Shown here piece after piece: positions 10,757-29,056 of a stretch of DNA of 55,092 bases. Source of the stretch: Planctomycetota bacterium (GTDB taxonomy: Bacteria > Planctomycetota > Phycisphaerae > Sedimentisphaerales > UBA12454); assembly GCA_018828825.1 (NCBI GenBank), contig JAHJUV010000090.1:1-55092 (forward strand), read 5' to 3'. Each line of letters begins with the position of its first letter. The first letter of the stretch is position 1. The notes under the pieces were generated by a model that searched no databases, was not told the origin of the DNA, and saw nothing but the letters and a program-made list of their open reading frames with translations. Made by a program: the position numbers and the translations under genes.

Positions 10757-10774
10757 TTATTACTCCGAAACGAA

Positions 10775-11320
10775 TCAATCGTATTTTATTAGTTCATAAG
10801 GCAATTCAAGAGGTTTGTTATTCAAAAGCGCTACAAGGGCCTGCCAAATTGTATCGGCGCCAGGCGGACAGCCCGGCAGCGAATAATCAATTTTTACGAC
10901 CTCGTGACACGGATAGACCCTGTCGAGACACAGCGGTAATTCCTTGTCATTTGGCATAACTTTTTCCGGATTGTGAATGCTCGGCCCGTTAAGATACGCT
11001 TCCTCGAGGCATTCTTTCAGCGGGATATTGTTTCTCATCGCAGGTATATCGCCCATTATGGCACAATCACCGACGGCAACGAGAATGTCGCAATGCTTGC
11101 GGAATTCCTGAAGAACGTGAACGTTATCTTCGTTCGCGCATCCGCCCTCAATTAGGCCGATGGCGCATCTGCCGGTGAATTCCTTTATGTCGTCAATAGG
11201 AGATTTGTCGAAATCAACAAGCTCAATGAGCTTAAGAATCCGCTCGTCAATATCGAGAAGCGACATATGGCAGCCGAAACAGCCTGCCAGCGATGTTGTT
11301 GCGATTTTCGGTTTTGACAT
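10775..11320 (-). CDS. hoxY: [NiFe]-hydrogenase small subunit (short, group 3 type)
   Basis: 181 aa with the Cys motifs CFGCHMS, GDC and PGCPP. Positioned directly upstream of hoxH. Confidence 0.85.
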   Translation of the reverse strand: MSKPKIATTSLAGCFGCHMSLLDIDERILKLIELVDFDKSPIDDIKEFTGRCAIGLIEGGCANEDNVHVLQEFRKHCDILVAVGDCAIMGDIPAMRNNIPLKECLEEAYLNGPSIHNPEKVMPNDKELPLCLDRVYPCHEVVKIDYSLPGCPPGADTIWQALVALLNNKPLELPYELIKYD

Positions 11321-11347
11321 TTTTATATATCCTTGTAATTTTTACTT

Positions 11348-12055: not shown

Positions 12056-12061
12056 TGTTTA

Positions 12062-12162
12062 CCCCCACACCAATGTAATAAGTTTTGAATACCTCTTTTT
12101 AATCTCGTTTCCATTTTTTTCCCTTAAAAGTTTTCCCCTGCACCAAAACATTGGTGTGGGGG
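12062..12162. repeat. 101-bp MITE-like element with 15-bp perfect terminal inverted repeats (cccccacaccaatgt / acattggtgtggggg)
   Basis: TIRs read directly. AT-rich interior. Fills the hoxF-hoxU gap. A second copy with the same termini lies at 33701-33805. Confidence 0.7.
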
Positions 12163-12191
12163 TTTATCCTCCATTAGGAGTCCCTATGACT

Positions 12192-14009: not shown

Positions 14010-14188
14010 ATTTTACCTCATAATTACCTTTAATAACTCCCCCTGATGTTTTTCGCCCGGAGCCAAAACAAGCAGTATAGTGCTTTTATGAACGAGTGTC
14101 TATGAAAGAAACCGAATATGAAAGGTCAAAAAAGAAAAATTGCATACCTAAAAGGCCTTGTATATAATTCGGAGACTGTAATGACGAT

Positions 14189-14222
14189 GTTTTTCACAAC
14201 AATCACAATTGTTGTGAAAAAC
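14189..14222. promoter_or_regulatory. perfect 15-bp-arm palindrome (gtttttcacaacaat-caca-attgttgtgaaaaac) 33 nt upstream of metXW
   Basis: Read directly. No flanking U-tract on either strand, so it is an operator or 5'-UTR hairpin candidate rather than a terminator. Confidence 0.4.
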
Positions 14223-14254
14223 AGGCAAAAAAATGATGTAAGGTTGAGTGTGCT

Positions 14255-16003
14255 ATGGCCGAAAAGCAAGCAGGTTCAGTGGGTATTGTTGAGACCAGGA
14301 CCATACGGGTCGTTCATGCGGACGATGCCTTCAAGCTGGTCAGCGGTAAGACCCTCAGTCCGATAGATGTGGCCTATGAGACTTACGGCAAATTGACCCC
14401 TGCCGGTGATAATGCCGTGCTTATTTGCCACGCCCTCAGCGGCAGCGCACATGCCGCCGGTCTCAGCAGTACCGACGACAAAAAGCCCGGCTGGTGGGAT
14501 ATTATGCTCGGGCCCGGCAAGGCGATTGATACAGACAAATATTATGTAATATGCTCTAATTTTTTAGGCGGATGCAGCGGCACAACCGGGCCGTCAAGCA
14601 TAAATTCGCGAACTGAAAAGCCTTATAGCCTTGACTTTCCGATGATAACAATTGCCGATATGGTAAAGGTTCAAAAGCTGCTGCTGGACAAGCTCGGCAT
14701 AAAACAGCTTTTAAGTGTCGTCGGTGGTTCGATGGGCGGAATGCAGGTTCTGCAATGGGCCATTGAATATCCTGAGTTTGTAAAATCGGCGATTGTAATT
14801 GCCGCCACTGCAAGACTCGGCCCACAGGCAATCGCCTTCGATGCGGTCGGCAGAAACGCCATTCTCGCCGACCCTAAAAAAGGTCTTGCTACCGCAAGGA
14901 TGGTAGGGCATATAACCTATCTTTCGAAGGAAAGTATGAGGGAAAAATTCGGCAGAGTCCTCAAAAGCGCCGACAAATACAGTTATGATTTCAGTTCCGA
15001 GTTTTCAATCGAAACTTATCTCGACTACCAGGGCCAGAGTTTTATCGAGCGATTCGATGCCAATAGTTATCTGTACATAACCAAGGCGATGGATTATTTC
15101 GACCTTGAAAGAGATTACGGCTCACTGGCTCAGGCATTTGCGAAGACTAAATCGAGATTTTTGGTAGTTAGCTTTACCAGCGACTGGCTTTTTACTCCCG
15201 CTCAATCGGAAGAGATGGTAAATGCCCTCATCGCCCAGCGAAAATCTGTCAGTTACTGCAATATTTTTTTGCCTTACGGCCACGACGCTTTTCTGCTCGA
15301 ACCGGAAACTCTCGGCAGCCTGATTGGAGGTTTTCTTTCGACAACCATCGCAAAACCGAAATTTGACAAGGCTTCAAAACTTTCAAGCGTAAAGGGCGTT
15401 GACAGGGCAAGAAGACTTCGTGTCGATTATGAGCTTATAGAATCGCTTATCAAGCCCAGCAGCAGGGTTCTTGACGTCGGCTGCGGAGATGGGCAACTGC
15501 TTCTTAGCCTGCAGCATGATAAAAATATTGAGGCTGAAGGCATCGAGGTTGACCAGAAGCTGATTTCGCAGTGTGTGAACAACGGCCTTGATATTATTCA
15601 AAGGGATATTGAGCGGGGTCTTGAGCTTTATCCGGACAACAGCTTTGATTACGCGATTTTGTCGCAGACTCTGCAAACACTCAAAAATCCGCATCTGGTC
15701 TTTGCCGAGCTTTTAAGAGTAGCGGGCAAAGTTGTCGTAAGTTTTCCAAACTTCGCATATTGGCGGTGCAGGGCGGAACTGTTCTTCGGCGGCAGGGCGC
15801 CTCGTACAAAACAACTTCCTTTTAGATGGTACGACACTCCGAATATACATTTTATGTCGCTAAAGGATTTCGATGATTTCTGCGAAGAAATCGGCGCAAA
15901 AATTGAGGCAAAAATTCCACTTATCGGCAACCGCCGAAGTCCTGTAAAATTCGCTCCCAATATTTTTGCCGAGCAGGCTATTTATCTGACAAGCCGAAAA
16001 TGA
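14255..16003 (+). CDS. metX: homoserine O-acetyltransferase MetX fused to MetW
   Basis: N-terminal ~375 aa alpha/beta hydrolase with the GGSMGGMQ nucleophile elbow. C-terminal ~200 aa (from about nt 15407) are MetW-like: VLDVGCGDGQLL, LSQTLQ, SFPNFAYW and WYDTPNIHF. Confidence 0.9.
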   Translation: MAEKQAGSVGIVETRTIRVVHADDAFKLVSGKTLSPIDVAYETYGKLTPAGDNAVLICHALSGSAHAAGLSSTDDKKPGWWDIMLGPGKAIDTDKYYVICSNFLGGCSGTTGPSSINSRTEKPYSLDFPMITIADMVKVQKLLLDKLGIKQLLSVVGGSMGGMQVLQWAIEYPEFVKSAIVIAATARLGPQAIAFDAVGRNAILADPKKGLATARMVGHITYLSKESMREKFGRVLKSADKYSYDFSSEFSIETYLDYQGQSFIERFDANSYLYITKAMDYFDLERDYGSLAQAFAKTKSRFLVVSFTSDWLFTPAQSEEMVNALIAQRKSVSYCNIFLPYGHDAFLLEPETLGSLIGGFLSTTIAKPKFDKASKLSSVKGVDRARRLRVDYELIESLIKPSSRVLDVGCGDGQLLLSLQHDKNIEAEGIEVDQKLISQCVNNGLDIIQRDIERGLELYPDNSFDYAILSQTLQTLKNPHLVFAELLRVAGKVVVSFPNFAYWRCRAELFFGGRAPRTKQLPFRWYDTPNIHFMSLKDFDDFCEEIGAKIEAKIPLIGNRRSPVKFAPNIFAEQAIYLTSRK

Positions 16004-16021
16004 CAAAAAATTTCAAATTTT

Positions 16022-16049
16022 GTCATTGCGAGCAAAGCGAAGCAATCTC
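16022..16049. repeat. member of the gtcattgcgag...gcaatctc dispersed repeat family
   Basis: gtcattgcgagcaaagcgaagcaatctc. Related copies lie at 29997-30050 (reverse orientation) and 54391-54429. Confidence 0.6.
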
Positions 16050-16057
16050 ATACCGTT

Positions 16058-17074
16058 TTAACCACCGATATATTCGTTGCCGACCTTTCTTGCTCTCTGG
16101 GGCTTATCGAGATTGATTCCCAGGCTTACACCCACTTCAACGAGGATATTCCACCCGGCAGCAAGATATATGTAATTGCTCAATTCGCCTATATCGGGAA
16201 CTGTAATTGTCGGGAAGATAGTCTCTTCATCGCTGACAGCAAATACTTTTAACCCTACTCCATCAACGAGCGTCTGTTTTATCTTTTCATACTCGCTCTT
16301 GAACGGGTCAATCAGGATAACAACATCGTTGGCGTTCATTACTTCTTCTACGCCGTGGACGGCATAAGTGCCTTCGAGATAATCGCTTTTCTTGCGGGTA
16401 ATCTCGTTTGTCTTAAGCGTCAGTTCTTCAGCAACACCGTCGTTTTTGCCCGCGAAGTAAATTGTTCCCGCCGATGCTATTGTATCAACGATTTTTTTAT
16501 CTATCGGCATTGTCAAAGCCGCAGCGAAGGCATCGGCGAGCTGGGACAATTTTTTATCGAGCGATGCCCCCTGGATAACCGACAGCAGTTCCTGATAGAA
16601 GAGAGCTTGTTCGGCGACGCTTTTTGTAGCGGCCACAGCCTGCTCTTTTTCGCATTTAAGAATAAAGGTCTCTTGTGCGATAGATTCGAGCTTTGTATTT
16701 TTATTTGCGGTAAGCGCAAACAGGTTCTTGTGATTTATCTTATTAAGTCTTTCGAACAGGCGGATAACTTCTTTGGTCTGGCCGCTGTTGGATGCGCCGA
16801 ATACGACGAAATCGGAAAGGTCATAGCTGTACGCCTGCAGGCCGCCTTCTGTTGCCAGGTTAAGATTTATACCGGCCCTTCGTGCACAATACATCGCGTT
16901 TTTGGCCGGGAAAATCCTGCTTGAGCCTTCGCCTGTAAAGAAAAGTTTGCCTTTTTCTTTGATTGCACTGATGACTTTTTCGGTGTTTTCAAGCTTGAAT
17001 TTTCGCAGAATTTCGGGAGTTTGCAGCATTTCGCGGGTAAGGGCAAATTGTGAGTATTTGGCGTCGGTGTTCAT
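16058..17074 (-). CDS. SIS-domain sugar-phosphate isomerase/deaminase family protein (GlmS-C/AgaS/FrlB-like, two SIS domains)
   Basis: 338 aa with FFTGEGSS and GASNSGQTKE SIS motifs in the first half and a second SIS-like half. No glutaminase domain. Confidence 0.7.
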   Translation of the reverse strand: MNTDAKYSQFALTREMLQTPEILRKFKLENTEKVISAIKEKGKLFFTGEGSSRIFPAKNAMYCARRAGINLNLATEGGLQAYSYDLSDFVVFGASNSGQTKEVIRLFERLNKINHKNLFALTANKNTKLESIAQETFILKCEKEQAVAATKSVAEQALFYQELLSVIQGASLDKKLSQLADAFAAALTMPIDKKIVDTIASAGTIYFAGKNDGVAEELTLKTNEITRKKSDYLEGTYAVHGVEEVMNANDVVILIDPFKSEYEKIKQTLVDGVGLKVFAVSDEETIFPTITVPDIGELSNYIYLAAGWNILVEVGVSLGINLDKPQRARKVGNEYIGG

Positions 17075-17269
17075 TTTTTTCCTCCATTATTTAGACAGAA
17101 TTAGTTTTTGTAATCTTTTCCACAGAAAATTATAAGGGCATATTGTACTCATTTTTGTGACAAAGTCCACACTTTATTGTTCTTTCGTAATACTACGGGT
17201 TTTAACCCGTAATAGTTTACTTTTACTAAAAATTAACCCCGGCGTATTAGCGGAAAACCAGCGTTTAAT

Positions 17270-17305
17270 AAAAAAGCCCTCGTTTTTGACGAGGGCTTTG
17301 TGTTT
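17270..17305 (-). terminator. rho-independent terminator downstream of the giant beta-helix gene
   Basis: On the minus strand, aaagccctcg-tcaaaaa-cgagggcttt is followed by ttttatt. It lies 16 nt after the stop at 17321. Confidence 0.75.
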
Positions 17306-17320
17306 TTACTTGTGTTAATA

Positions 17321-20300
17321 TCAGGGAACCAGATATCCATTTGTGTCATATTTAGGCGATGGTGAACCGGTATTGCTCTCAGGAACCGCAGAATCCCTCG
17401 CATAGACCCTGTAAACACTGTAGTTCGGGACGAGATACGGTCCTGCTATCCATGTGGGGCTTAGCTGCCAGTTGCTGCTTGTGCCTGCTCCGTTAGTACA
17501 CTCGAAATAATAGTAAACAGGCGGACTAACGTCGTTAGCTTCAACAGCGGTCATAGTATGATAGTAGAATTGTCCGTCGTAGGTATAAATAGGTGTACCT
17601 CCGGCAGCCCACTGGCTCGGATTAGGATTCGGCGGAGTAGTATCTTCTGTCGGCTCAGTAGTAGCTGAGGCAGAGTCTGAGTAGCTGGTTGAGTTTTGAT
17701 TAGATGACTTATCACGGGCCATAACCCTATAAGTATATGGAGTACTCGGTAAAAGACCGATGTCTTCATAATTTGGGTCATCCTGCCATCCGCTGCTTGT
17801 TCCTCCGGCATTGCCGCTTGTCTCCTCGAACCAGTATTCGACGCCGGAAATATCCGTAGCGGTTGTTGCAACCATACGGATAGAATCGCTTGATGTTACA
17901 TAAGGAGCTGTTACCCATGTCATTGGATCCGGTTTAGGCGGGGTTCTGTCTTCGTTCGGTTCCGCATAGCCAATAACACTCCAGTCGGTTTCGTTATATT
18001 TGGCATCTCTTGCCTTGACCTGATAGCCATACTGTTGCCCCGGAGTAAGACCAGTGTTGGTATATGTTGTGTCCACGCTCCAGCCGCGATTATTACCGCC
18101 GCCGGACGTGCACTCGAAATAGTATTCGATTATCGTACTCGAGTTATCCCTTGCAGCGGTTGCCCGCATTGTAATTGAGTTCAATCCCGCCGAACGCGGC
18201 GATAACGCCCAGGTCATCGGGTTCGGTCTTGGCGGGACGGTTTCTGTTTTGCCGTAGTTCTCTGCGAAGAGAGCAAAATCTTCAAAATCTACTCTGCCGT
18301 CTTTGTTCAAGTCGCGGCCGGAACAGAAATACGGGAAGCTGCATCCGTCATCCAGCCAGCAGAGCATAAACAGACCAAGGTCTTCAATTGTTAGAATACC
18401 GTCAAAATTTAAGTCGCCGAGCAGGTCGGCAATCAATGTATAATGATAACCCATATCCACATTAGAGTCGGCAACATCAATAATATGGTCGGTTCTCGTA
18501 GTGTGTTTATACATACTGTTATCTACGGCAGAGCCATAGCCTGCATCAACACACGGACTATCCACTGTTTGGCAGGGGTCTGATGTTGCGAGCTGGCTGA
18601 GGTAGTAATTGCCCCATGGCCCAATGACAAATAACGGGCTTTCCAAACTTGTGCCGTTAAAGTTGCCTGTGTTCCAGTCGAGTATGCAGCCGTTTTCTGT
18701 ATCAGCAAATATACCGGCCTGACCGTCCCTTACGTCGCTGTATGAAACATCTACCCTGGCGCCGTGTTTATCTGCCGCATCGAAAGTGTTTCCGATGGAT
18801 ATTTCCGAACCATATTCGGCGTTGTTATTCCAGAGGATACTATTAACAACCTTTGTATAAGCTTCGTAGGCACAGCTTAAACCGCCGCCGTAGTCTGAAG
18901 CGAAACCGGTACCTGAAACAGTGTTATTTGTTATTGTACAGTTTGACAGCGTTAATTCTGCATTCCAGTTGGCAGATACGCCGGCGCCGTCGCGACTTGC
19001 ATTATTGGAAGTTATGAGGCAATTGTGCATATTCGGCTCAGAGTTACTGGTGAAATAAGCGCCGCCGCCTGACACTTCCGCAGTATTGCTGTAAATCTGA
19101 CAGTCGTAGAACATCGCATCGCTCGAGGAATAAATCGCGCCGCCCTGACCTGCCGGACCGATAGCCTGATTATTGCCGAAATAACAATCGACAATAAATG
19201 AACTGTTGTTAACCATAGCCATGCCGCCGCCAATCATCGAAATGCAACTTTCAAAAGTATTATTGACCAGATAAGCGGTTGCACCTTTCTGATATATACC
19301 GCCGCCTGAACAGGCACGGTTATTGATAAAGGTGCAGTTCTCTATAATTTGCGTCGCATCTTCAGCGTCTTCAACACCGGTGTTTTCAGTGCAGATTGCA
19401 CCGCCGTAGCTTACTACCGGACTGTAGAGCGTGGCACCGTCGGGAAGGTTGACATCGCCGATTTGGCCCCTCGTGTCGGCTTCGTTATCGATGAATACGC
19501 AATCCGTGAATTTCGCCTCGCTGCCCCTGGCGATATATACGGCGCCGCCGAAAGATGGGATGGCGTAGTTATAATGAGGCCAACCGCTATAATCGACGTC
19601 ACTTATACCACTTGTGCCGCTGTAAGCAACATTGCCCTGGAAAAGACAACTTTCAAATACAGGCTTGCTTCCGCTTGCACAGTAAATAGCGCCGCCTTTA
19701 CCGCTGTAATACCAGTAAGGCTCGTATGGGCCGAAATCCCATCTGCTGGAGAGAGGATCGCCCCAGTTTCCGCCGTGGCCGCCTGGATCACCGTTTACGC
19801 CGTTGCCGCCGTTTCCACCCTGTACATAGCAATCTATAAAGTTACAATTTTTGACCAATGGATTGCTTGTTTCGTCTATTCCAATAGCGCCGCCGTGTGC
19901 CCAGCCGGCCCAGCCGCCGTCGCCGGCTTCGCCTGAGCCGTCACAGCCGTTGGCGCCCAGAGCAGAGCAGTTTATAAATCGGCAATTTCGAATTGTAGGC
20001 GAAGCGTTATAGAGTCTCATTGCTCCGCCGAGAATGGTGAATCCGTTATACCCGTCTCCGCCCGGATCACTATGAGCCCATGTTGCACTGCAATCGAGGA
20101 ATCCTGCGTAATAATGAGCATCCTGGATAGTGACGCCTTCGATGGTCATCGTTCGGTCAACATCGAGGATGGTAAAACCATTGCCGAGGATAATTGTCTG
20201 AGCGATGATACAGGGATCATCCGGCGCAGAACTGGTAATGGTTATATTTTTACCGTTTATTAAAATTGTCGAATAATCAAAATTACTCTCACTCAAGCTA

Positions 20301-23300
20301 TATGTACCTGTAGCTAAAATAATAGTGTCGCCGCTAACGGCAGCATTGATTGCAGAGCCGAGGTCCGGATAGTCGGTCGGCACATGAATCTCGTCCTGCA
20401 GTTGTGATGGGTCATCGGTAACAAGCCCAAAGCTAACAGTGACTTTTTTGCTCCTATCCATTGTTGTGATAAAATTATTACTATCTGTCTGCTGGCCCAC
20501 GTCGTCAACGAACCAATTGGCTACCTTACAGTTGGCATCCGGGACGGCCTCAAGTGTTATTATTTGTCCTGCGTAAATATTATAGGTATAGCCGGCCAGC
20601 CAGGGCGCTTTAATAGTGCCGTAGGCGGGGTCGTTAACATCTACCGTTAATTCATAACGTCTTGTTATGCCTTCAGAATAATGATAACCAAGGTCAACAA
20701 TACCAATATCTTTGAAATTATCAACTCTTGTTGTGTAACTATCAAGGCTGAGATTTGCCGCCAGAGCGCTGCCGATATCGAAACAGGGGCTGGTATAGAC
20801 TTGCAGAGCGTCTATATGGCTTAAGTAGTAGTTGATGCCGGGAACGAAATTCGGGTCTTCGGCGATATTGCTGCTGCCGGCAGCGGTCCACATATCGTTC
20901 GCGTCTTTCTGAAGGCCGGTTATTGTACAGCTTCGTTCCGTATAAACGGGTACAGATGTACCAAGCATAGAGATGGCAGCACTGACATTTACTCTTGGCT
21001 TTGTAATTGCAATCCTTGTATCCGTTACAGGATTGCCGCTCGCGGTAAGGGCTGCTTTGACCTGAGCGGGTGTCAGGTATGCGCCTGTTATTTGTTTTGC
21101 GGCGTTTTGAAGAGCCGCTACGGCGCCCGCTGCATAAGGACATGCTGCCGAGGTGCCGTTAAAATATTGATAGTAATCTCCAGTGTTATAACCGCCGGTA
21201 CCGACAATATCTGTCGTATAGGCATTTTCTGAAGGAGCAAGAATGTCTAATATACCCGCGGTATTTGAATAACAGGTTACCCCGTCGGGCTGGGTTTGAA
21301 CATAACAATTCTGAGAATAGAATGTTGCGTCATATACGGCGCCTACGCTTATTACATCTGACATTGCCGCCGGCCAGGAAATACCGTCGGTGAAACCGTT
21401 ATTACCGGAAGAAGCAAGAATTGTGATTCCTGCCGAATTGGCAGTTGCTGCCGCTATTGCAAATGCAGGATAGTCGTTATCTGCAGCAGCGGAACTGCTA
21501 TAATAGCCTCCCCCAAGGCTATTGCTTATGGCCTTGATAGGATCGGCCAAATTATCATTTCTGTGGCTTATACACCAGTCCCAGGCGGCAAGAATATCTG
21601 CACTAAAGAAATATCCTGCGTTATCAGGGCTGGCCTTTAGAGCATATATTTTAGCGTTATAGGCGCCGCCGCCGATGTAATCGCCGACTGTGCCGAGCGA
21701 ACCTGCGGCAATGCCTGCACAGGCCGTACCGTGAGCTACGCCTACGGGTATTGGGTCGGCATCGTCACTTCCGGTATCATAACCGCCGATAACTTTACTG
21801 TTCGGGAATGTCCCGCCGCCCAGTCTCGGATGGGTGTAATCAACGCCTGTATCAACGATAGCAATAGATACGCCCTGTCCATTGTAGGTTGCTCTTGTAT
21901 TTAAAGCATTCATTAACGGGATGCCCTGAGCAGTCATAGGATAAACTGTTCTTACCGGCTCAATATGGGCGACCACAGAGCTTACGAGAAGTTTAGAGAG
22001 ACCGGTGGATGTTGCAGTGCCGCTGAATGCCGCTACGTTCGTAAGCTTATGCCGCAGCGTAAATTCACTCGGAGTAACAGTTGAAAGAGCCTGATCTTGC
22101 AATGTTGCGATTTGACTTTGCAGAGTACTTACAGAATCAGGCGACGACCAATCTGTTGTTTGTGCCTCGGCCGGTTCGACAAGGCTTATGATAATCTTTG
22201 CCGAGCCTGAAGAGTTAATTTCATCATAAATTGTTTGTTCATCGACAAGTTTTGGGATGGATGTTGAGCCCGAACTGCCCGAATCAGATTCATTTGGATC
22301 TAGGCCGGAGCCGTATCTCAGGTCAATATCGCTGTATGTTATGGTAAGACTTGACGGCATATCTGTGAAGAATCCACCGTCGCTTAAAGCGATTTGCGAA
22401 CCATCCATACCGCTATTGTTCCAGAATATGGAGTCTTTGACAATCGTGTCGCTTTCATAGGAGCAGAACAAACCGCCGCCGTTGCTGTTCGTATCGGTTA
22501 CGGAGTTGTCTGCGAGCGTACAGTTTTGAATTGTTGGCTTTGCAAAGAAAGTTGAAGCAATACCGCCGCCTGAATCGGCTGCATTATTGTTGGTTATCAG
22601 ACAGTTCTTTATCAACGGTTTTTGGAGGAACATCGTATCGCCATCAAGGCAGATACCGCCTCCGGTCATTCTTGCGTAGTTTTCGGTTATAGCAGTATCG
22701 TTAATGTCAATCAACGATGAAAGAGCGTATATACCGCCGCCTGAACCAAACAAAGCATAGCCTGTATCTTCTACAGTACCGGACTGAGTACCGGCAGTAT
22801 TGCCTTTTACAGATGATTTTGTTATTTCAACGATGCTGTCCATCGCGAGTATGCCGCCGCCGGAGTAAGAATTATTATTTATTATATTACATTCCGTGAC
22901 GTGCAAATCAGTCCAGAGACTGTATATACCGCCGCCGATAGGAGCCGAGTTCTGTATGAATTTACAGTCATTAACCTCTGCAATATTTGCATACCACAGG
23001 CTCAGACCGCCGCCGCCGCTGCAATCGCTGTCGTCTGAAATTACTGTTTCGCCTACATTCGTAGATATCGTTTCATTATTCTGCATATTGCAGTCTGAAA
23101 ATTTTACATTAGAATTTACATCACAGAATACACCGGCGCCAAAGCTTGGGAGATGATAATTTTTATTCGGCTGCTGCTGGGTGCCATAGTAGCTTATGCC
23201 GCCTAATCCGCTGATGCTGCCTTCTGTTGCATTATCTGTAATAATGCAGTTGATAAATGTGGCATTGCAGCCCCAGCCGACATAAACAGCTCCGCCGCGA

Positions 23301-26212
23301 GCGCTGTTATTACTTACTATATCGCCCTGACCTGCACGCGATACTGTGGTAAGACCGCCGTATGAGCATGGGTCTGGGAAATTAAATCCAGCCAGTCCGC
23401 CATTTCCGCCTTGTCCGCCTTTTGCAAAGCAGTTTCTAATAGTACAGTTTTCAAAGGTTGGGCGTGGCAAAGTGAGTGGAGGAAGCCCATATGTCATCCA
23501 GAGCGGCAAGTCATTATCGTCAATTATAGATATACCTCCGCCGAATGCTCCGCCGCCCAAACCGCCTTGTCCGGCATCACCATTATTAGGTTCGGTATCA
23601 GAAGAATAACTATAACCATTTGCGCCGTTTCCGCCGATTCCGCCGACTGCGCAGCAGTCCTCAATAATAGTATTCTTGAAAACAGGGCTGCCGCCTAAAA
23701 TGATAACGCCTGCGCCGTAAACGGTTCCGCCGTCGCCGCCAAAGCTGCCGTTATGGATGGTCGAGTTTCCATCAGCGCCGTCTCCGCCGGTACCACTTCT
23801 GGAGTTTATATTGCGTATAATACAATTCAAAACCTGATGATCACCGCCAATATATAGTCCTAAACCTCCATTCCAGCCGCCGCCTTGTCCAGGGAAGCTG
23901 GGTTCGTTGCTGCCAAAACCGTCCCCGCTATACAAATCGATATTGGCTATAGTTATCCCATTCAGCACGGAGGTACCTGTACCTACAATTTGAAATCCTA
24001 ATGGTCCCCGCAGAGAATCTTCGCCGCTGCCATCTATAACTACGGTTTCAGGATTTTCGGGGTCACCTATGATTGTGATAGATTTATTATACACCCAAAA
24101 ACCTGTTGCGATATAAGTGCCGGGAGCGATTTGTATTGTGTCGCCGTCGTTAGCATCATCAATGGCGTCCTGAATGCATAAATACTGTCCGGGCACATGC
24201 AGAACTCGCGGAATATGATAGCTTACATTAACAGTGTGATTAGCGTCCATTGTTACAGTATTGGTAAGCTCAATTGTATTGTTATCGTCTGTGCCGCTCC
24301 ATATTACCACGGAGTCCAGAGGTATAGTTGCAGTAAGCGGGACAATCGTGCTTTCATTAAAAAGTTGTCCGGTAGGATAATTTGGATCTATTGTTGTGCC
24401 GCTGGCAGCATTTGTGGTCAGGGTGAATTGTGGAATCAGCTCGAACTCTACTTTAACAAGTTTATTTGAAGTCATTGTAACGGTGTTTGTGTTGACATCT
24501 GATGCAGGCTTATTATCCGCGTCGTCTGTCCATTGCTTAACTCTATAGCCGGACTCAAGAGTTGCAGTAATCGTGACGGTCTTTCTTGCCGGCTGGTAGT
24601 ATCGTCCCGGACTGATTGTACCATGCTTTTGTCCGTCCGGCAGAATAATGACTCGCGTATCGAGCATAAATTTGCCGAATTCCACGGCTACCGTAGTGCC
24701 TGAGTCAAGGGTAACTATATATGTTGTATTTGGACCGTAGATAACCGTGTAGGTATTAGGGTCATTGATGTCAAAAGTTGCTGTTCTGCCCTTGAGCCAT
24801 CGATTGACACCATAAATGTTCGGATCTGTCGGGTAAGCATTTATGGTAATCTGGCTGTTTTTCGGGAAACTGGCGCCGGTGGGAGGATAGTTTGGATTGA
24901 TTGTACCGTTCCCGCCGTAAACGAGAGTAATAAGTTTGCATATAGATGGGGCGAACGTAGCCGTTACGGTATGGTTAGCGTCCATTGTAATAAGTCTTGT
25001 TGTGTTGGTATCGCTGACATCATTGCCATCGATAATCCATTTTTCGATGTAGTCGTTTGGGTCAGTTGGATTTGCTGTAAGGAGCACTTCTGAAAATTGT
25101 GTATATGAAGGAAGATTCGGGCTTGGAGTTACTGTTCCGGGGTTTCCGTTGGGGTCAACGCCGGTAGTAAGTACATAGTTGGCATCAATGCCGCTGTCAG
25201 GATAATGGAAGCCCATATCAACAGTATTTGAGTCGGGTATATTATCTGTTCTGGTGGTAAATGAATGGCCCGAGCCGAATATCGTATCGTTTGAATCGCC
25301 GCCGGTATCTATACAGGGACTATTGGGAGCAAGCTGGCCTGCGGCAATCTGGCTTAAATAATAATTACCCCAAGGTCCTGTTTTAAGCAATGGGTCGGTG
25401 TTTATATTGCCTGTTCCCGTGTCGCCGTCCTGAATGCAGGAATATGTTAATGTTGTCGGTCCGTAAATATCATCGCCATTGTTCCACAGGATAGAGTTTC
25501 TTACCGTTGAGCTTGAACCATAGGAGGCATAAACGCCGCCGAAACCGCCGCTGCCTGTGTTATCTGCGATAGTACAGTTTATGATGGCCGGCGAAGAATA
25601 GTCGTAGCAGTCGATAGCGCCGTAGCCGTTTAGCGAGTTATTATCAGTTATAAGACAATTTGTTATATCCGGCGACGATTCACTGCTGCACTCAATAGCG
25701 CCGCCGTCATAATAGGAAATGTTTCCAGCTATAATACAATTATTGATAACAGGAGATGCATAAAAGCAGTCTATAGCGCCGCCATATACTGCGGTACTGT
25801 CTGTTATGATACAGTTGTTAATGGTAGGTGAGGCATCTTCGCATTCTATAGCTCCGCCGTAGTATTCATCACCATTTTTGATTGTAATACCTTCTACGGT
25901 AGCAGCGGGTGTTTCGCCGCTATGGAAATAAAAACCGCGTCCAGCGTTTCCGCAGTCGATTATACAGTTATTCGGATTGCCGCTCGCACTGCGGACAGTG
26001 ATTAACTTGCCGCCGAAATCCAGGTCTCGGTTATTGCTGCCTGCATAAGTTCCATCAGCGAGTTCAACTGTATCGCCTGAGCATGCATCAGCAATTGCAC
26101 CCCTAATGTTGTAGTACGGGCCGGAGACCTGGTCAACTACACGGATTGCTGCACTGCCGATAGAGGTTAATAGAAGAGTTAAAACGAAACTGAAAATAAG
26201 TTTTTTATTCAT
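17321..26212 (-). CDS. giant secreted multi-domain protein: signal peptide, 3 right-handed beta-helix modules, InlB-B-repeat-like domains, internal I9-like propeptide + S8 subtilase, dockerin-like EF-hand pair, 3 FN3-like domains
   Basis: Uninterrupted 2987-codon ORF. The best start is ATG 26212 (MNKKLIFSFVLTLLLTSIGSAA). Recurrent GGAI/GGGI beta-helix turns. S8 triad motifs DTGVD, HGTACAG and GTSAACP. DLNFDG...DLNKDGRVDFEDF. Three PPxPxP(M)xW...ARD repeats at the C-terminus. Confidence 0.9.
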   Translation of the reverse strand: MNKKLIFSFVLTLLLTSIGSAAIRVVDQVSGPYYNIRGAIADACSGDTVELADGTYAGSNNRDLDFGGKLITVRSASGNPNNCIIDCGNAGRGFYFHSGETPAATVEGITIKNGDEYYGGAIECEDASPTINNCIITDSTAVYGGAIDCFYASPVINNCIIAGNISYYDGGAIECSSESSPDITNCLITDNNSLNGYGAIDCYDYSSPAIINCTIADNTGSGGFGGVYASYGSSSTVRNSILWNNGDDIYGPTTLTYSCIQDGDTGTGNINTDPLLKTGPWGNYYLSQIAAGQLAPNSPCIDTGGDSNDTIFGSGHSFTTRTDNIPDSNTVDMGFHYPDSGIDANYVLTTGVDPNGNPGTVTPSPNLPSYTQFSEVLLTANPTDPNDYIEKWIIDGNDVSDTNTTRLITMDANHTVTATFAPSICKLITLVYGGNGTINPNYPPTGASFPKNSQITINAYPTDPNIYGVNRWLKGRTATFDINDPNTYTVIYGPNTTYIVTLDSGTTVAVEFGKFMLDTRVIILPDGQKHGTISPGRYYQPARKTVTITATLESGYRVKQWTDDADNKPASDVNTNTVTMTSNKLVKVEFELIPQFTLTTNAASGTTIDPNYPTGQLFNESTIVPLTATIPLDSVVIWSGTDDNNTIELTNTVTMDANHTVNVSYHIPRVLHVPGQYLCIQDAIDDANDGDTIQIAPGTYIATGFWVYNKSITIIGDPENPETVVIDGSGEDSLRGPLGFQIVGTGTSVLNGITIANIDLYSGDGFGSNEPSFPGQGGGWNGGLGLYIGGDHQVLNCIIRNINSRSGTGGDGADGNSTIHNGSFGGDGGTVYGAGVIILGGSPVFKNTIIEDCCAVGGIGGNGANGYSYSSDTEPNNGDAGQGGLGGGAFGGGISIIDDNDLPLWMTYGLPPLTLPRPTFENCTIRNCFAKGGQGGNGGLAGFNFPDPCSYGGLTTVSRAGQGDIVSNNSARGGAVYVGWGCNATFINCIITDNATEGSISGLGGISYYGTQQQPNKNYHLPSFGAGVFCDVNSNVKFSDCNMQNNETISTNVGETVISDDSDCSGGGGLSLWYANIAEVNDCKFIQNSAPIGGGIYSLWTDLHVTECNIINNNSYSGGGILAMDSIVEITKSSVKGNTAGTQSGTVEDTGYALFGSGGGIYALSSLIDINDTAITENYARMTGGGICLDGDTMFLQKPLIKNCLITNNNAADSGGGIASTFFAKPTIQNCTLADNSVTDTNSNGGGLFCSYESDTIVKDSIFWNNSGMDGSQIALSDGGFFTDMPSSLTITYSDIDLRYGSGLDPNESDSGSSGSTSIPKLVDEQTIYDEINSSGSAKIIISLVEPAEAQTTDWSSPDSVSTLQSQIATLQDQALSTVTPSEFTLRHKLTNVAAFSGTATSTGLSKLLVSSVVAHIEPVRTVYPMTAQGIPLMNALNTRATYNGQGVSIAIVDTGVDYTHPRLGGGTFPNSKVIGGYDTGSDDADPIPVGVAHGTACAGIAAGSLGTVGDYIGGGAYNAKIYALKASPDNAGYFFSADILAAWDWCISHRNDNLADPIKAISNSLGGGYYSSSAAADNDYPAFAIAAATANSAGITILASSGNNGFTDGISWPAAMSDVISVGAVYDATFYSQNCYVQTQPDGVTCYSNTAGILDILAPSENAYTTDIVGTGGYNTGDYYQYFNGTSAACPYAAGAVAALQNAAKQITGAYLTPAQVKAALTASGNPVTDTRIAITKPRVNVSAAISMLGTSVPVYTERSCTITGLQKDANDMWTAAGSSNIAEDPNFVPGINYYLSHIDALQVYTSPCFDIGSALAANLSLDSYTTRVDNFKDIGIVDLGYHYSEGITRRYELTVDVNDPAYGTIKAPWLAGYTYNIYAGQIITLEAVPDANCKVANWFVDDVGQQTDSNNFITTMDRSKKVTVSFGLVTDDPSQLQDEIHVPTDYPDLGSAINAAVSGDTIILATGTYSLSESNFDYSTILINGKNITITSSAPDDPCIIAQTIILGNGFTILDVDRTMTIEGVTIQDAHYYAGFLDCSATWAHSDPGGDGYNGFTILGGAMRLYNASPTIRNCRFINCSALGANGCDGSGEAGDGGWAGWAHGGAIGIDETSNPLVKNCNFIDCYVQGGNGGNGVNGDPGGHGGNWGDPLSSRWDFGPYEPYWYYSGKGGAIYCASGSKPVFESCLFQGNVAYSGTSGISDVDYSGWPHYNYAIPSFGGAVYIARGSEAKFTDCVFIDNEADTRGQIGDVNLPDGATLYSPVVSYGGAICTENTGVEDAEDATQIIENCTFINNRACSGGGIYQKGATAYLVNNTFESCISMIGGGMAMVNNSSFIVDCYFGNNQAIGPAGQGGAIYSSSDAMFYDCQIYSNTAEVSGGGAYFTSNSEPNMHNCLITSNNASRDGAGVSANWNAELTLSNCTITNNTVSGTGFASDYGGGLSCAYEAYTKVVNSILWNNNAEYGSEISIGNTFDAADKHGARVDVSYSDVRDGQAGIFADTENGCILDWNTGNFNGTSLESPLFVIGPWGNYYLSQLATSDPCQTVDSPCVDAGYGSAVDNSMYKHTTRTDHIIDVADSNVDMGYHYTLIADLLGDLNFDGILTIEDLGLFMLCWLDDGCSFPYFCSGRDLNKDGRVDFEDFALFAENYGKTETVPPRPNPMTWALSPRSAGLNSITMRATAARDNSSTIIEYYFECTSGGGNNRGWSVDTTYTNTGLTPGQQYGYQVKARDAKYNETDWSVIGYAEPNEDRTPPKPDPMTWVTAPYVTSSDSIRMVATTATDISGVEYWFEETSGNAGGTSSGWQDDPNYEDIGLLPSTPYTYRVMARDKSSNQNSTSYSDSASATTEPTEDTTPPNPNPSQWAAGGTPIYTYDGQFYYHTMTAVEANDVSPPVYYYFECTNGAGTSSNWQLSPTWIAGPYLVPNYSVYRVYARDSAVPESNTGSPSPKYDTNGYLVP
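20963..22204 (-). other. I9-like propeptide plus peptidase S8 (subtilase) catalytic domain embedded in the giant protein
   Basis: Propeptide-like KIIISLVEP...FTLRHKLTNVAAFSG...VAHIEPVRTVY. Catalytic Asp codon 21851-21853 (VSIAIVDTGVD), His 21731-21733 (HGTACAG), Ser 21149-21151 (GTSAACPYAAG). Confidence 0.8.
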
Positions 26213-26534
26213 AGTAAATTTGCTCCATCCTGACAGATTTAGGCAGGTTTCCTTTTTCTCTGTTCTGGTCATATTTCTTTCCAAAAAACTTTAAACTTTA
26301 AGCGCACTATTTTTCTGTAATCAGGCTGAGTCGTTTCAAAAATAGTCTGTTTTGCAAAGTCTGTTCGCCCATATACCGGCTATCCGTTTTGCCGGCTAAA
26401 GCGACAGAGTGTACCTCATCCTTGAGCCCCAAACAGTCAATAGATTTTATCAAACTTTCAGCCCTATTGCAAGATAAAACCATCGTTCCAACCTTTTCGG
26501 CAAGCCTTTCTGGTAAAAGAACTTCCGTTATTTA

Positions 26535-27901: not shown

Positions 27902-29056
27902 ATGTCCGGTGAGACGACAGTATATATCGGCCTTGGCAGCAATCTCGGCGACAGGGAAAAAAATCTGAACAAGGCCCTTGGATTGCTCGCAGCCGATAGG
28001 CACATAAATCTTTTCCGTACGAGCAGCATAACGGAGACAAAACCCCTGGCTGATAATCCACCTTCGCTTCCTCCTTCGTTAAAACTACGGAGGACAAGAA
28101 AGCTACGGCGGACAGGAAAACAGCGGGATTATCTTAACCGCGTCGCGGAAATCAGGACAACTTTAAAGGCTGATAAGCTTTTGAAGGTCTTAAAAAAAAT
28201 TGAATCGGCGATGGGAAGGAAAAAATTGGTAGAAAAATGGTCCAGCAGGACGATTGACCTCGATATACTCTTGTTCGGCAATAAAAAAGTTCGCAAAAAA
28301 GACTTGTGTTTACCGCACAGACAGATGCATTTGAGGTCGTTTGTGCTGAAAGGCCTTTGCGAGCTTGATGGCGAGATTGTTCATCCGGTTCTTAAGGAAA
28401 GCGTTTCCGTTCTTTACAGCCGATTGAGCGGAAAGGATTTTTATTTCGATGATGACAGACCGCAGCTTGTCTCGATTGCTGGTGTGATAGGGGCCGGAAA
28501 GACCACGCTTGCCGAAGGCCTGCGAGATTTATTTGGCTTGAGGCTGATAAAAGAATCTTACGACAGCAATCCGTTTTTGCCGAAGGTTTACGCCGGACAG
28601 AAGTCTGTCGCTCTGGACAGTCAGTTATATTTTTTGCTGAGCCGATGCGAACAGTTAAGGCCGGACAGTTTTCCGCCCGGCAGTGTTGCGGTGAGCGATT
28701 ACATAATGGACAAGGAAATGCTTTACGCCCGTATCTGGCTCGATTCGGTGCAGTTCGAGATATACAGAAAAGTCAATGCCGCGATGTGCAAAACAGCCGC
28801 AGAGCCGGTAATAACGGTATATATTAAGCTTCCGCCAAAAAAATGTCTGGAGCGTATAAAGCAGCGCAGCAGGCCTTACGAGCAGGATATCGATTTGAGC
28901 TTTCTTGAAAAACTGCATATCGGATATGAGAAACTTTTTGAAACATTTAATTGCTGTCCGGTTATAACGATAGATGCCGAGGCGGTCGATTTTCGGCAAA
29001 CCCAGCAGATTGAGGCGATTGGCGAAAAGATTAATTATTATATTGGGCGGGATTAA
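27902..29056 (+). CDS. folK: fusion protein: 6-hydroxymethyl-7,8-dihydropterin pyrophosphokinase (HPPK) + deoxynucleoside kinase family domain
   Basis: N-terminal half: VYIGLGSNLGD and RTIDLDILLF HPPK motifs. C-terminal half from about aa 195: P-loop IAGVIGAGKTTLAEGL plus dNK-type SDY...E and RIKQRSRPYE motifs. Confidence 0.8.
   Translation: MSGETTVYIGLGSNLGDREKNLNKALGLLAADRHINLFRTSSITETKPLADNPPSLPPSLKLRRTRKLRRTGKQRDYLNRVAEIRTTLKADKLLKVLKKIESAMGRKKLVEKWSSRTIDLDILLFGNKKVRKKDLCLPHRQMHLRSFVLKGLCELDGEIVHPVLKESVSVLYSRLSGKDFYFDDDRPQLVSIAGVIGAGKTTLAEGLRDLFGLRLIKESYDSNPFLPKVYAGQKSVALDSQLYFLLSRCEQLRPDSFPPGSVAVSDYIMDKEMLYARIWLDSVQFEIYRKVNAAMCKTAAEPVITVYIKLPPKKCLERIKQRSRPYEQDIDLSFLEKLHIGYEKLFETFNCCPVITIDAEAVDFRQTQQIEAIGEKINYYIGRD

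What the first reader, a model, noticed from the sequence alone, without database searches (positions are those of the whole stretch)
17321..26212. Giant secreted beta-helix protein with a subtilase cassette nested inside the cap of its second beta-helix module
All three beta-helix modules end with the same cap: SI[LF]WNN ... [TS]YS[CD][IV] ... GNYYLS ... SPC.D.G ... TTR[TV]D ... VD[ML]G[FY]HY. In modules 1 and 3 the cap is contiguous. In module 2 it is split. ...LTITYSDIDL (about nt 22320) is followed by ~470 aa, and only then by ...NIAEDPNFVPGINYYLSHIDALQVYTSPCFDIG...TTRVD...VDLGYHY (about nt 20680-20880). The intervening ~470 aa carry an I9-like propeptide and a complete S8 catalytic triad (DTGVD, HGTACAG, GTSAACP). 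A subtilase with its own pro-domain therefore sits about 1350 aa from the signal peptide. This suggests self-processing of a polyprotein, or a protease displayed on a beta-helix scaffold. No transmembrane anchor, autotransporter barrel or sorting signal is evident at the C-terminus.
Basis: partly seen in the sequence, partly recalled or inferred. Interest (0 to 1): 0.7.

Follow-up and report, generated by a model that had tools for sequence, protein, structure and literature searches.

The report
Pro-subtilase nested in beta-helix cap
A 2963-residue secreted protein of an uncultured Phycisphaerae-type planctomycete carries a complete subtilisin-like protease, with its own folding pro-domain, spliced into a loop at the end of one beta-helix module, and the same loop carries other functional domains in related giant proteins.

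Summary
The ORF at 17321-26212 (-) encodes a 2963-aa protein with three beta-helix modules that end in the same cap. In module 2, about 459 aa (aa 1299-1757) split the cap between YSDIDL and VPVYTE. The insert is a G/S-rich linker, an I9-like pro-domain and a Peptidase_S8 domain with an intact D1454/H1494/N1604/S1688.

It is not an assembly artefact. Syntenic orthologues in four independent MAGs have the same split cap. A related giant gene has the homologous module with an uninterrupted cap.

The main new result is that the site is a general insertion socket. In 148 representative giant relatives, 60 of 258 paired caps are split at the same point. The inserts are S8 (24), vWA (15), NIDO (7), choice-of-anchor L (3) and an unknown ~330-aa domain (8). 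All 28 aligned nested S8 cassettes keep their catalytic residues and group apart from free-standing relatives.

This favours a protease displayed on a beta-helix scaffold over polyprotein processing. Pro-domain autocleavage near T1427|A1428 would nick the chain, but that is inferred. Two AlphaFold runs did not show whether the cap halves reassemble. GenBank annotates the protein only as "S8 family serine peptidase".

The parts
17321..26212 (-). Whole gene, 2963 codons plus stop; giant secreted multi-beta-helix protein
   Evidence: Open frame. The exact protein is in GenBank as MBU1259781.1 and MBU2458124.1, 'S8 family serine peptidase'.
26147..26212 (-). Signal-peptide-like N-terminus, aa 1-22 (MNKKLIFSFVLTLLLTSIGSAA)
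   Evidence: Read directly from the sequence. Orthologues align from aa 1. No signal-peptide predictor was available.
25187..26146 (-). Beta-helix module 1 with contiguous cap 1 (capN aa 209-262, capC aa 268-342)
   Evidence: Pfam Beta_helix and DUF1565. Cap HMM hits.
24173..25186 (-). InlB B-repeat-like (Flg_new_2) repeats, aa 343-680
   Evidence: Pfam PF18998, E 6.9e-21, 3 stretches.
22535..24172 (-). Beta-helix module 2 body, aa 681-1226 (Pmp-like GGAI rungs)
   Evidence: Pfam Beta_helix. AlphaFold gives rungs with pLDDT 80-95.
22319..22534 (-). Cap 2, N-half, aa 1227-1298 (...SIFWNN...LTITYSDIDL)
   Evidence: capN HMM E 3e-39. Predicted as the last beta rungs.
22259..22318 (-). Flexible G/S/D-rich linker, aa 1299-1318; start of the insert
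   Evidence: pLDDT below 50. Not alignable between orthologues. In the 8 relatives where it could be measured the equivalent linker is 20-25 aa and G/S/T-rich.
21932..22258 (-). I9-like pro-domain, aa 1319-1427
   Evidence: AlphaFold beta-alpha-beta-beta-alpha-beta, pLDDT 95-98. Best PDB fold matches are pro-subtilisins 3afg, 3whi and 2e1p, with about 455 aligned columns against about 309 for mature enzymes. Pfam I9 was not detected.
20942..21931 (-). Peptidase S8 catalytic domain, aa 1428-1757. D1454 = nt 21851-21853, H1494 = 21731-21733, oxyanion N1604 = 21401-21403, S1688 = 21149-21151
   Evidence: PF00082, 125.6 bits. Triad alignment to 3afg. D, H, N and S are conserved in 28 of 28 nested cassettes.
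20663..20941 (-). Cap 2, C-half, aa 1758-1850 (VPVYTERSCTITGL...NYYLSH...SPCFDIG...TTRVD...VDLGYHY)
   Evidence: capC HMM E 1e-26. Contiguous with capN in the L001 homologue. Fold not resolved, pLDDT 33-71.
20333..20662 (-). InlB B-repeat-like spacer, aa 1851-1960
   Evidence: One of the Pfam Flg_new_2 stretches is presumed to lie here (which prints coordinates only for the best stretch). The homologues P0002 and P0004 have the same order of parts.
18422..20332 (-). Beta-helix module 3 (aa 1961-2420) with contiguous cap 3 (aa 2421-2597)
   Evidence: Pfam Beta_helix best stretch at aa 2288-2437. Cap HMMs.
18233..18421 (-). Dockerin/EF-hand-like Ca-binding pair, aa 2598-2660
   Evidence: Pfam Dockerin_1 E 0.031 and EF-hand_5 E 0.0022, both below their cut-offs. 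Free-standing relatives carry PF00404.
17324..18232 (-). Three fn3-like C-terminal domains, aa 2661-2963; no anchor or sorting signal detected
   Evidence: Pfam fn3 26.5 bits against a cut-off of 25. Conserved in P0001, P0121 and L003-L006.
17273..17299 (-). Terminator-like hairpin with T-run 22 nt after the stop codon
   Evidence: Pattern scan. This is a consensus match only.

Best explanation
The gene encodes a Sec-secreted, probably surface-associated or extracellular scaffold. It has three parallel beta-helix modules separated by InlB-repeat-like spacers, followed by a dockerin-like element and three fn3-like domains.

Each beta-helix module ends in a conserved cap of about 100-135 aa. A loop of that cap lies between '...YS[DN][IV]x' and 'P[IV]Y[VT]E..C.L.GW'. 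In a large Planctomycetota family of giant proteins this loop is a general insertion socket, into which whole functional domains have been spliced.

In this protein the socket of module 2 holds a complete zymogen-type subtilase: a flexible linker of about 20 aa, an I9-like intramolecular-chaperone pro-domain, and an S8 catalytic domain. The cassette derives from the signal-peptide-bearing secreted subtilases that are common in the same lineage.

The enzyme is expected to be catalytically competent, and the beta-helix presents it as a side or tip domain.

Inferred, not shown: the pro-domain folds the catalytic domain and is then autocleaved near T1427|A1428. This placement follows the AQSVPYG mature N-terminus of subtilisin, matched here to AQGIPL. 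The cleavage would nick the polypeptide into halves of about 150 and 165 kDa. The halves could stay together through the pro-domain/enzyme complex and, if the two cap halves form one fold, through the cap.

The likely role is proteolysis of polymeric substrates at surfaces bound by the adhesin-like modules of an anaerobic polymer-degrading Sedimentisphaerales-type bacterium.
For: - Architecture and motifs.
- S8 membership, triad and oxyanion Asn.
- Zymogen-like fold: pro-domain pLDDT 95-98, and the top PDB fold matches are unprocessed pro-subtilisins.
- Empty site: L001 ORF 2525-7156 contains the module-2 homologue (48% identity) with an uninterrupted cap, HSDIDL-LTGY-APIYTEADCTIDGL...YYLSH...SPCIDAG.
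- Full-length or long orthologues with the same split cap at a syntenic locus (PanC, HPPK/dNK, aminotransferase, giant gene, SIS, MetXW, NuoF): L003, L004, L005, L006.
- Socket generality: of 258 paired caps in 148 representative proteins, 198 are contiguous and 60 are split at the same point. The inserts are S8 24, vWA 15, unknown ~330-aa domain 8, NIDO 7, choice-of-anchor L 3 and three mixed or unclassified. L007 has S8 in one cap and vWA in the next.
- Selection on the protease: the S8 domain is 70-78% and the pro-domain 67-74% identical between orthologues. Several other regions fall to 35-50% (for example the InlB-like repeats, 40-41%), although caps and some helix regions match or exceed the cassette.
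- Every nested S8 for which both flanks are available has capN before it and capC after it.
- Nested cassettes separate from 107 free-standing relatives at one tree bipartition.
- Free-standing relatives have the form signal peptide, pro-domain, S8, variable C-terminal domains and often a dockerin-like element.
Against: - No experiment supports activity, cleavage or localisation.
- Pfam Inhibitor_I9 is not detected by sequence.
- Two AlphaFold runs left capC at pLDDT 33-71, so the fold of the cap and its reassembly around the insert are unproven.
- No solved structure matches capC by sequence.
- The cleavage site is placed by analogy only.
- The dockerin assignment is below threshold, and no cohesin partner was looked for.
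- The tree is neighbour-joining without bootstrap, and the free-standing sample was chosen by similarity to the query.
- 113 of 371 capC hits could not be paired with a capN, so the census is approximate.
Confidence: 0.65

Rival explanations
1. Polyprotein self-processing. The embedded S8 exists mainly to cut the giant precursor at inter-module sites, releasing separate beta-helix modules that act independently.
For: - An active-looking protease lies inside a multi-module protein.
- Inter-module linkers exist.
- A preprint on giant PVC-group proteins speculates that S8 and C39 domains cleave them into smaller polypeptides (10.1101/2023.11.21.568195).
Against: - Only 24 of the 148 representative relatives have a nested S8 (28 S8 domains in all), yet most have several modules, so the family does not need an internal protease.
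- The same socket holds vWA, NIDO and choice-of-anchor L domains, which cannot process anything.
- No conserved cleavage motif between modules was noticed, though none was searched for systematically.
Confidence: 0.15
2. Permanently latent or non-catalytic S8. The pro-domain is never removed because it is tethered on both sides, so the cassette acts as a binding or structural module, or as an enzyme activated only by an external protease.
For: - The pro-domain is tethered to the scaffold by a linker of only about 20 aa and could remain docked after cleavage.
- The top fold matches are unprocessed forms, although AlphaFold models single chains and would give this result in any case.
Against: - The triad and oxyanion Asn are invariant in 28 of 28 nested cassettes. 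Such conservation is not expected for a purely structural module.
- The pro-domain/mature junction (EPVR....LAQ.IPL.NA) is conserved as in the free-standing, presumably self-activating relatives.
Confidence: 0.12
3. Assembly chimera or gene-fusion artefact that joins a subtilase gene to a beta-helix gene.
For: The source is a metagenome-assembled contig. The related locus L001 does show frame breaks.
Against: - The same continuous ORF and split cap occur in four independent MAGs at a syntenic locus.
- The same arrangement occurs in 24 other representative proteins.
- The identical protein was deposited from two or more assemblies.
- Both cap halves flank the cassette in frame.
Confidence: 0.01
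4. Intein-like or otherwise self-excising mobile cassette.
For: It is a discrete insertion in a conserved host site, and empty sites exist.
Against: - No Hint or intein family hit.
- The junction residues (L|RYG ... GTS|VPV) lack the Cys/Ser/Thr and His-Asn splice residues.
- The cassette is a normal secreted-enzyme unit, conserved with its host over 50-70% sequence divergence.
Confidence: 0.01

Closest known systems
Secreted pro-subtilases of MEROPS family S8A with an I9-type pro-domain (Tk-SP 3afg, pro-subtilisin E 3whi, pro-Tk-subtilisin 2e1p), and the free-standing Phycisphaerae subtilases P0015, P0028 and P0078
   Same: - Pfam S8 fold.
- D-H-S order and oxyanion Asn.
- Docked beta-alpha-beta-beta-alpha-beta pro-domain.
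- AQ.IP-type mature N-terminus.
- 50-55% identity to the free-standing lineage relatives.
   Different: - No signal peptide of its own.
- The whole zymogen is internal, inside a loop of another domain about 1300 aa into the chain, so pro-domain cleavage would break the host polypeptide.
- It lacks the variable C-terminal accessory domains of the free-standing enzymes.
Protease-bearing beta-helix autotransporters: SPATEs such as Hbp, Pet and EspP, and subtilase autotransporters such as NalP, SphB1 and Ssp (from my own knowledge, not tested here)
   Same: A serine protease is presented on a long right-handed beta-helix stalk. Side domains project from beta-helix loops, and in Hbp these have been used as a display platform.
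   Different: - In autotransporters the protease is the N-terminal domain, not nested in a C-terminal cap.
- SPATE proteases are chymotrypsin-like (S6).
- A C-terminal beta-barrel translocator defines the family and is absent here.
PA-domain insertions in subtilases, such as C5a peptidase, lactocepins and plant SBT3/cucumisin (from my own knowledge)
   Same: A nested-domain architecture that involves an S8 protease.
   Different: The roles are reversed. In those proteins S8 is the host and PA the guest. Here S8 with its pro-domain is the guest and a beta-helix cap is the host.
Chlamydial Pmp-type / PbH1 parallel beta-helix repeats, and the choice-of-anchor Q terminal motif (NF041518)
   Same: - GGAI...N rungs: PF13229 hits, POMP_repeat E 0.008, and PF02415 in homologues.
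- The SPC.D.G ... DMG[YF]H[YE] end motif resembles the SPxIDAG...DxGAYE ending.
   Different: - Choice-of-anchor Q scores 12 bits against a cut-off of 25, so this is not a member.
- No autotransporter barrel.
- The long cap form with the PIYVE..C.L.GW segment and its insertion socket is not described in these families.
Giant proteins of Omnitrophota and other PVC bacteria with S8 or C39 peptidase domains (10.1101/2023.11.21.568195)
   Same: Very large secreted multi-domain proteins in the PVC group that carry subtilisin-family domains. Autoproteolysis has been proposed for them.
   Different: In that work the S8 domains are described as N-terminal. Neither 'nested' nor 'domain insertion' occurs in the text of that preprint. 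This protein (2963 aa) is much smaller than those giants.

Membership tests
Peptidase S8 (subtilase), Pfam PF00082 | Profile score above the gathering threshold | tested here: met
   120.4 bits for the whole protein and 125.6 bits for the insert, against a cut-off of 21.8.
Peptidase S8 (subtilase), Pfam PF00082 | Catalytic Asp-His-Ser in that order, plus the oxyanion Asn | tested here: met
   D1454, H1494 and S1688 align to the catalytic positions of 3afg. N1604 is in SGNNG. All four are invariant in 28 nested cassettes.
Inhibitor_I9 pro-domain (PF05922) | Sequence match to the I9 profile | tested here: not met
   No PF05922 hit even at E <= 10 on the insert. Some free-standing relatives do carry precomputed PF05922 hits.
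Inhibitor_I9 pro-domain (PF05922) | Beta-alpha-beta-beta-alpha-beta fold docked on the catalytic domain, as in pro-subtilisins | tested here: met
   AlphaFold secondary structure with pLDDT 95-98. Foldseek top hits are pro-forms with about 455 aligned columns. This rests on a predicted structure, not an experimental one.
Autotransporter (type V secretion) | C-terminal beta-barrel translocator domain | tested here: not met
   No autotransporter family appears in the Pfam or NCBIfam scans. The C-terminus is fn3-like.
Type VII secretion mycosin (TIGR03921) | Equivalog score of at least 278.75 | tested here: not met
   66.8 bits, a generic S8 similarity only.
Dockerin type I (PF00404) | Profile score above the threshold of 22.9 bits | tested here: inconclusive
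   14.9 bits, E 0.031, at aa 2598-2650. The paired DxNxDGxxD-like loops are visible.
Choice-of-anchor Q domain (NF041518) | Profile score of at least 25 | tested here: not met
   Not reported for the window caps. 12.2 bits (E 0.16) for the L001 cap.
Intein / Hint domain | Hint profile and splice-junction residues | tested here: not met
   No hit. Junctions are L|RYG and GTS|VPV.
Self-processing polyprotein | Cleavage of the precursor into separate functional chains | not testable with these tools
   Requires protein chemistry or N-terminomics.
Split-cap (nested-domain) beta-helix module family defined here | capN and capC both present, flanking the insert at the YS[DN][IV]x / P[IV]Y[VT]E column | tested here: met
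   HMM hits at aa 1227-1297 and 1780-1850.
Split-cap (nested-domain) beta-helix module family defined here | The two cap halves form one folded unit around the insert | tested here: inconclusive
   capC pLDDT is below 50 in model 1 and 33-71 in model 2. No PDB relative of capC was found.

The most novel reading that the evidence does not exclude
The beta-helix cap is a purpose-built, evolvable display socket and also a molecular clasp. Cassettes (S8, vWA, NIDO, choice-of-anchor L and an unknown domain) are swapped between modules by recombination within the repeated caps.

For the pro-subtilase cassette, autocleavage at the pro-domain junction turns the single chain into two halves of about 150 kDa. 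These would be held only by the re-associated split cap and the bound pro-domain. Protease activation, by loss or degradation of the pro-domain, would then be coupled to controlled shedding of the distal half of the protein, which carries the active protease, module 3, the dockerin-like element and the fn3-like domains.
Probability: 0.2. Interest if true: 0.75.

Novelty: new variant of a known kind. Interest (0 to 1): 0.55.

Why it matters
Every part is a known domain. What appears undescribed is the arrangement: a whole zymogen, pro-domain included, nested in a loop of another domain, at a site that recurrently accepts at least five unrelated cassettes across a family with more than 2000 representative sequences. 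I found no description of it in the searchable literature.

If confirmed, it would matter in four ways:
- It provides a natural, modular beta-helix display platform. This is of interest for protein engineering, by analogy with the Hbp display system.
- It poses a concrete folding and maturation question, because pro-domain cleavage must break the host chain.
- It points to unannotated functional content in giant surface proteins of abundant anaerobic Phycisphaerae from peat, fen and subsurface habitats. These proteins are currently labelled only 'S8 family serine peptidase' or 'hypothetical'.
- It flags an unknown ~330-aa domain that uses the same socket.

Tried and rejected
- Pfam Inhibitor_I9 on the insert gave no hit. 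The pro-domain call therefore rests on predicted fold.
- The self-BLAST of the giant protein printed nothing useful. It was replaced by motif and HMM mapping.
- AlphaFold on aa 1130-1850 with an S8-rich alignment left capC at pLDDT below 50 (A1). A second run with an alignment enriched in contiguous caps improved capC only to 33-71 (A2). MAFFT had not aligned the capN parts of the contiguous-cap sequences to the query, so cross-cap covariation was almost absent.
- A profile search of the PDB with beta-helix plus cap matched only the rung region, for example Rhombotarget A 9cdu and chondroitinase B. Nothing matched capC.
- NCBIfam choice-of-anchor Q, NosD and mycosin were all far below their cut-offs.
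- The midpoint-rooted 'smallest clade' test for monophyly of nested S8 was uninformative. It was replaced by a best-bipartition test.
- The search for homologous proteins listed no protein longer than about 1.7 times the query length in either search. Full-length giants therefore appeared only in the exhaustive representative search and the genome scan.
- Literature searches for a described S8-in-beta-helix or Sedimentisphaerales giant-protein architecture found nothing specific. One attempted paper query failed on a short search term.
- The intein, chimera and autotransporter readings were considered and rejected (see rival explanations and membership tests).
- Covariation between capN and capC was considered but not attempted, because only about 260 paired caps are in hand.
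Full report
**1. What is in the window**

The minus-strand ORF 17321..26284 is the longest in the region. From the ATG at 26212 it encodes 2963 aa, beginning with a signal-peptide-like MNKKLIFSFVLTLLLTSIGSAA. The identical 2963-aa protein is in GenBank as MBU1259781.1 and MBU2458124.1, 'MAG: S8 family serine peptidase [Planctomycetes bacterium]'.

The neighbouring genes are housekeeping genes:
- a MetX-MetW fusion, a SIS-domain protein and an aminotransferase;
- an HPPK-deoxynucleoside kinase fusion, PanC and Lgt;
- NuoF-like and [NiFe]-hydrogenase genes, DXS and release factor.

A terminator-like hairpin follows the stop codon. GC content is even across the gene.

**2. Check of the observation**

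The cap spans aa 240-337 in module 1 and aa 2458-2591 in module 3. In module 2 it is divided into aa 1261-1298 and aa 1782-1845. With the intervening residues removed, cap 2 aligns colinearly with caps 1 and 3.

Pfam finds the following:
- Beta_helix, four stretches;
- Peptidase_S8 at aa 1445-1725, 120 bits against a cut-off of 21.8;
- three divergent InlB B-repeat stretches;
- a borderline fn3;
- a sub-threshold dockerin.

The triad motifs align to the catalytic residues of the Tk-SP structure 3afg. Pfam's I9 model does not hit the ~110 aa before the S8 domain.

An AlphaFold model of aa 1130-1850 gives those residues as a beta-alpha-beta-beta-alpha-beta unit at pLDDT 95-98. The best PDB fold matches of the model are unprocessed pro-subtilisins: ProN-Tk-SP 3afg, pro-subtilisin E 3whi and pro-Tk-subtilisin 2e1p. 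These align over about 455 columns, against about 309 for mature enzymes. The cassette is therefore a complete zymogen-type subtilase.

**3. It is an insertion, not a chimera**

Metagenomic fragments at 50-63% identity repeat the order beta-helix, capN, linker, pro-domain, S8, capC. These are P0001, P0002, P0003, P0005, P0006 and P0034.

A scan of GTDB species genomes found long or complete orthologues in four MAGs:
- L003, HGW-Planctomycetes-1, 70% identical and colinear over aa 971-2963;
- L004, Sedimentisphaerales SPRUCE_196, 3086 aa;
- L005, 'Phycisphaerales' fen_1357, 2918 aa;
- L006, Anaerohalosphaeraceae, 5136 aa.

All four have the S8 cassette between a capN and a capC. All lie in the same gene neighbourhood as the window.

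The neighbours are 73-91% identical in L003-L005, whereas the giant protein is only 50-70% identical. In L006 the neighbours are 53-75% identical. Within the giant protein, the S8 domain (70-78%), the pro-domain (67-74%) and the cap halves are among the better-conserved parts. The linker cannot be aligned.

Locus L001 supplies the 'empty site'. Its ORF 2525-7156 contains a module 48% identical to the window's module 2. The cap of that module is uninterrupted...TIRHSDIDL-LTGY-APIYTEADCTIDGL...YYLSH...SPCIDAG...TTRSD...VDMGFHH. This fixes the window's insert at aa 1299-1757. It lies between YSDIDL and VPVYTERSCTITGL.

**4. Where the cassette comes from**

More than 100 of the best hits to the cassette are free-standing secreted subtilases of Phycisphaerae, Sedimentisphaerales and other Planctomycetota. 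They are about 820-1060 aa long. Their form is signal peptide, the same pro-domain, S8, variable C-terminal domains and often a dockerin-like end. They lack cap sequences.

In a neighbour-joining tree, one bipartition separates 107 free-standing enzymes from all 42 nested cassettes. Two giant proteins that carry the cassette at their N-terminus (P0210 and P0290) fall on the nested side. This is consistent with one capture event followed by spread. The tree has no support values, and the sampling is biased toward the query.

**5. The cap loop is a general socket**

An exhaustive search of 1.84 billion representative proteins with cap 3 found 2254 proteins at E <= 1e-3. Many are 2000-5600 aa long and have 2-10 caps.

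I built capN and capC HMMs and scanned the best 148. Of 371 capC hits, 258 could be paired with a capN:
- 198 are contiguous, with a gap of 60 aa or less;
- 60 are split.

The gap lengths are multimodal, at about 0-40, 220-360 and 440-500 aa. The inserts fall into these classes:

| Insert | Number of split caps | Basis |
|---|---|---|
| S8 cassette | 24 | |
| vWA | 15 | Pfam VWA_4, |
| Unknown ~330-aa domain | 8 | no Pfam or NCBIfam hit |
| NIDO | 7 | PF06119, E 7e-27, |
| Choice-of-anchor L | 3 | NF038133, E 2e-71, |
| Mixed or unclassified | 3 | |

In all classes the insert begins a residue or two after ...YS[DN][IV]. It ends just before P[IV]Y[VT][ED]..C.L.GW. Some proteins carry two or three different cassettes in different caps. 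Examples are L007, P0160, P0188, P0193 and P0178.

All 28 aligned nested S8 cassettes keep D, H, the oxyanion N and S. Every nested S8 with both flanks available has capN before it and capC after it.

The N-side linker of the window's insert is 23 aa. In the 8 relatives where it could be measured it is 20-25 aa and 45% G/S/T. The C-side connection is about 11 aa.

**6. Mechanism**

Shown:
- the nested architecture and its conservation;
- an intact catalytic apparatus;
- a zymogen-like predicted fold;
- recurrent use of the site by unrelated domains.

Inferred:
- The protein is exported by Sec and acts outside the cytoplasm.
- The beta-helix modules serve as a scaffold or adhesin that presents the cassette.
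- The pro-domain chaperones folding and is autocleaved near T1427|A1428. AQGIPL corresponds to the AQSVPYG mature N-terminus of subtilisin, and Y1443-D1454 matches the Y21-D32 spacing. This is my own alignment against a subtilisin BPN' sequence recalled from memory; one search shows only that the S8 region aligns.
- The cleavage would nick the chain into two halves of about 150-165 kDa.

Whether these halves stay together through a re-formed cap is unresolved. capC stayed at low confidence in two AlphaFold runs. No solved structure resembles it in sequence.

Non-protease cassettes occupy the same socket, and most family members have no S8. I therefore favour display on a scaffold (0.65) over polyprotein processing (0.15) or a latent, non-catalytic module (0.12). 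The chimera and intein-like readings are effectively excluded.

**7. Comparison with known systems and novelty**

The cassette is a bona fide S8 member. The host modules are PbH1/Pmp-like beta-helices. Their terminal motif resembles the choice-of-anchor Q ending but does not qualify for it.

- Autotransporter proteases also combine a protease with a beta-helix. There the protease is N-terminal and a beta-barrel is required, and no barrel is present here.
- PA-in-S8 nesting is the reverse topology.
- A preprint on PVC giant proteins mentions N-terminal S8 domains and speculates on autoproteolysis.

I found no description of S8, or any other domain, nested in a beta-helix cap.

I rate this a new variant of a known kind, with interest 0.55. 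The parts are ordinary and the gene is already deposited under a generic name. The nested zymogen and the family-wide socket appear to be unreported, and they raise testable folding and maturation questions.

Noticed in passing
L001 nt 9700-10150 (P0001 aa ~600-705), compared with window aa 1758-1850 and 2497-2597: P0001's capC is chimeric relative to the window. Its first part (VPIYVEAGC...NIAEDPNFVLG) is 59% identical to cap 2C and 38% to cap 3. Its second part (WGNYYLSQ...MGYHYTL) is 77% identical to cap 3 and 45% to cap 2C. It then continues into the dockerin and fn3 tail. This looks like recombination between repeated caps that deleted or added a whole module.
   Followed up: partly
Related proteins, e.g. 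P0165 aa 1523-1864, P0177 aa 2079-2413, P0178 aa 571-905: A ~330-aa cassette occupies the same cap socket in 8 caps and has no Pfam or NCBIfam match. Its conserved motifs are ...HHDGMEF[IV]NGYLFLAD..GD... and ...LEGMGFGAL.HFW.GS... It is a candidate new domain family.
   Followed up: partly
L006 nt 2366-17773 (Anaerohalosphaeraceae MAG) and L007 nt 1-8610: At the syntenic locus L006 encodes a 5136-aa version with extra modules. L007 carries S8 in one cap and vWA in the next. Module number and cassette content vary between relatives, while the flanking housekeeping genes are better conserved than the giant gene (73-91% in L003-L005, 53-75% in L006). The giant gene therefore evolves fast.
   Followed up: partly
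P0210 (2914 aa) and P0290 (3872 aa), aa 1-480: Two giant proteins carry the same S8 cassette at the N-terminus, directly after a signal peptide and followed by fn3-like domains. They group with the nested cassettes in the tree. They could be an intermediate or a derived arrangement.
   Followed up: no
L001 nt 7156-8044: The giant gene in this ENA contig is broken into several frames. tblastn hits switch between frames 3, 2 and 1. This indicates either assembly indels or a pseudogene, and it explains why P0001 begins mid-module.
   Followed up: no
window 14255-16003 (+): A single ORF fuses an alpha/beta-hydrolase (MetX-like homoserine acetyltransferase fold) with MetW. The fusion is conserved at 84% identity in L005.
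   Followed up: no
window 27902-29056 (+): A single ORF fuses HPPK (folate biosynthesis) with a deoxynucleoside-kinase-like domain. It is conserved in L004 and L005.
   Followed up: no
window aa 1765 and 1810 of the giant protein (nt ~20920 and ~20785), and the equivalent positions in other caps: Two cysteines in capC, in ..E..C.L.G. and SPC.D.G, recur in most long-form caps (they are replaced in a few). This suggests an intradomain disulfide, consistent with an extracytoplasmic location.
   Followed up: no
window 9326-14009 (-): A NiFe-hydrogenase large subunit, a 2Fe-2S/4Fe-4S subunit and a NuoF-like flavoprotein lie adjacent. This looks like a soluble NAD(P)-linked hydrogenase module, consistent with an anaerobic fermentative lifestyle.
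   Followed up: no
P0133 (531 aa, partial, Phycisphaerales): Another arrangement: the end of an S8 domain is followed directly by a complete beta-helix module with a contiguous cap and InlB-like repeats. S8 and beta-helix modules therefore also combine in tandem, not only nested.
   Followed up: no
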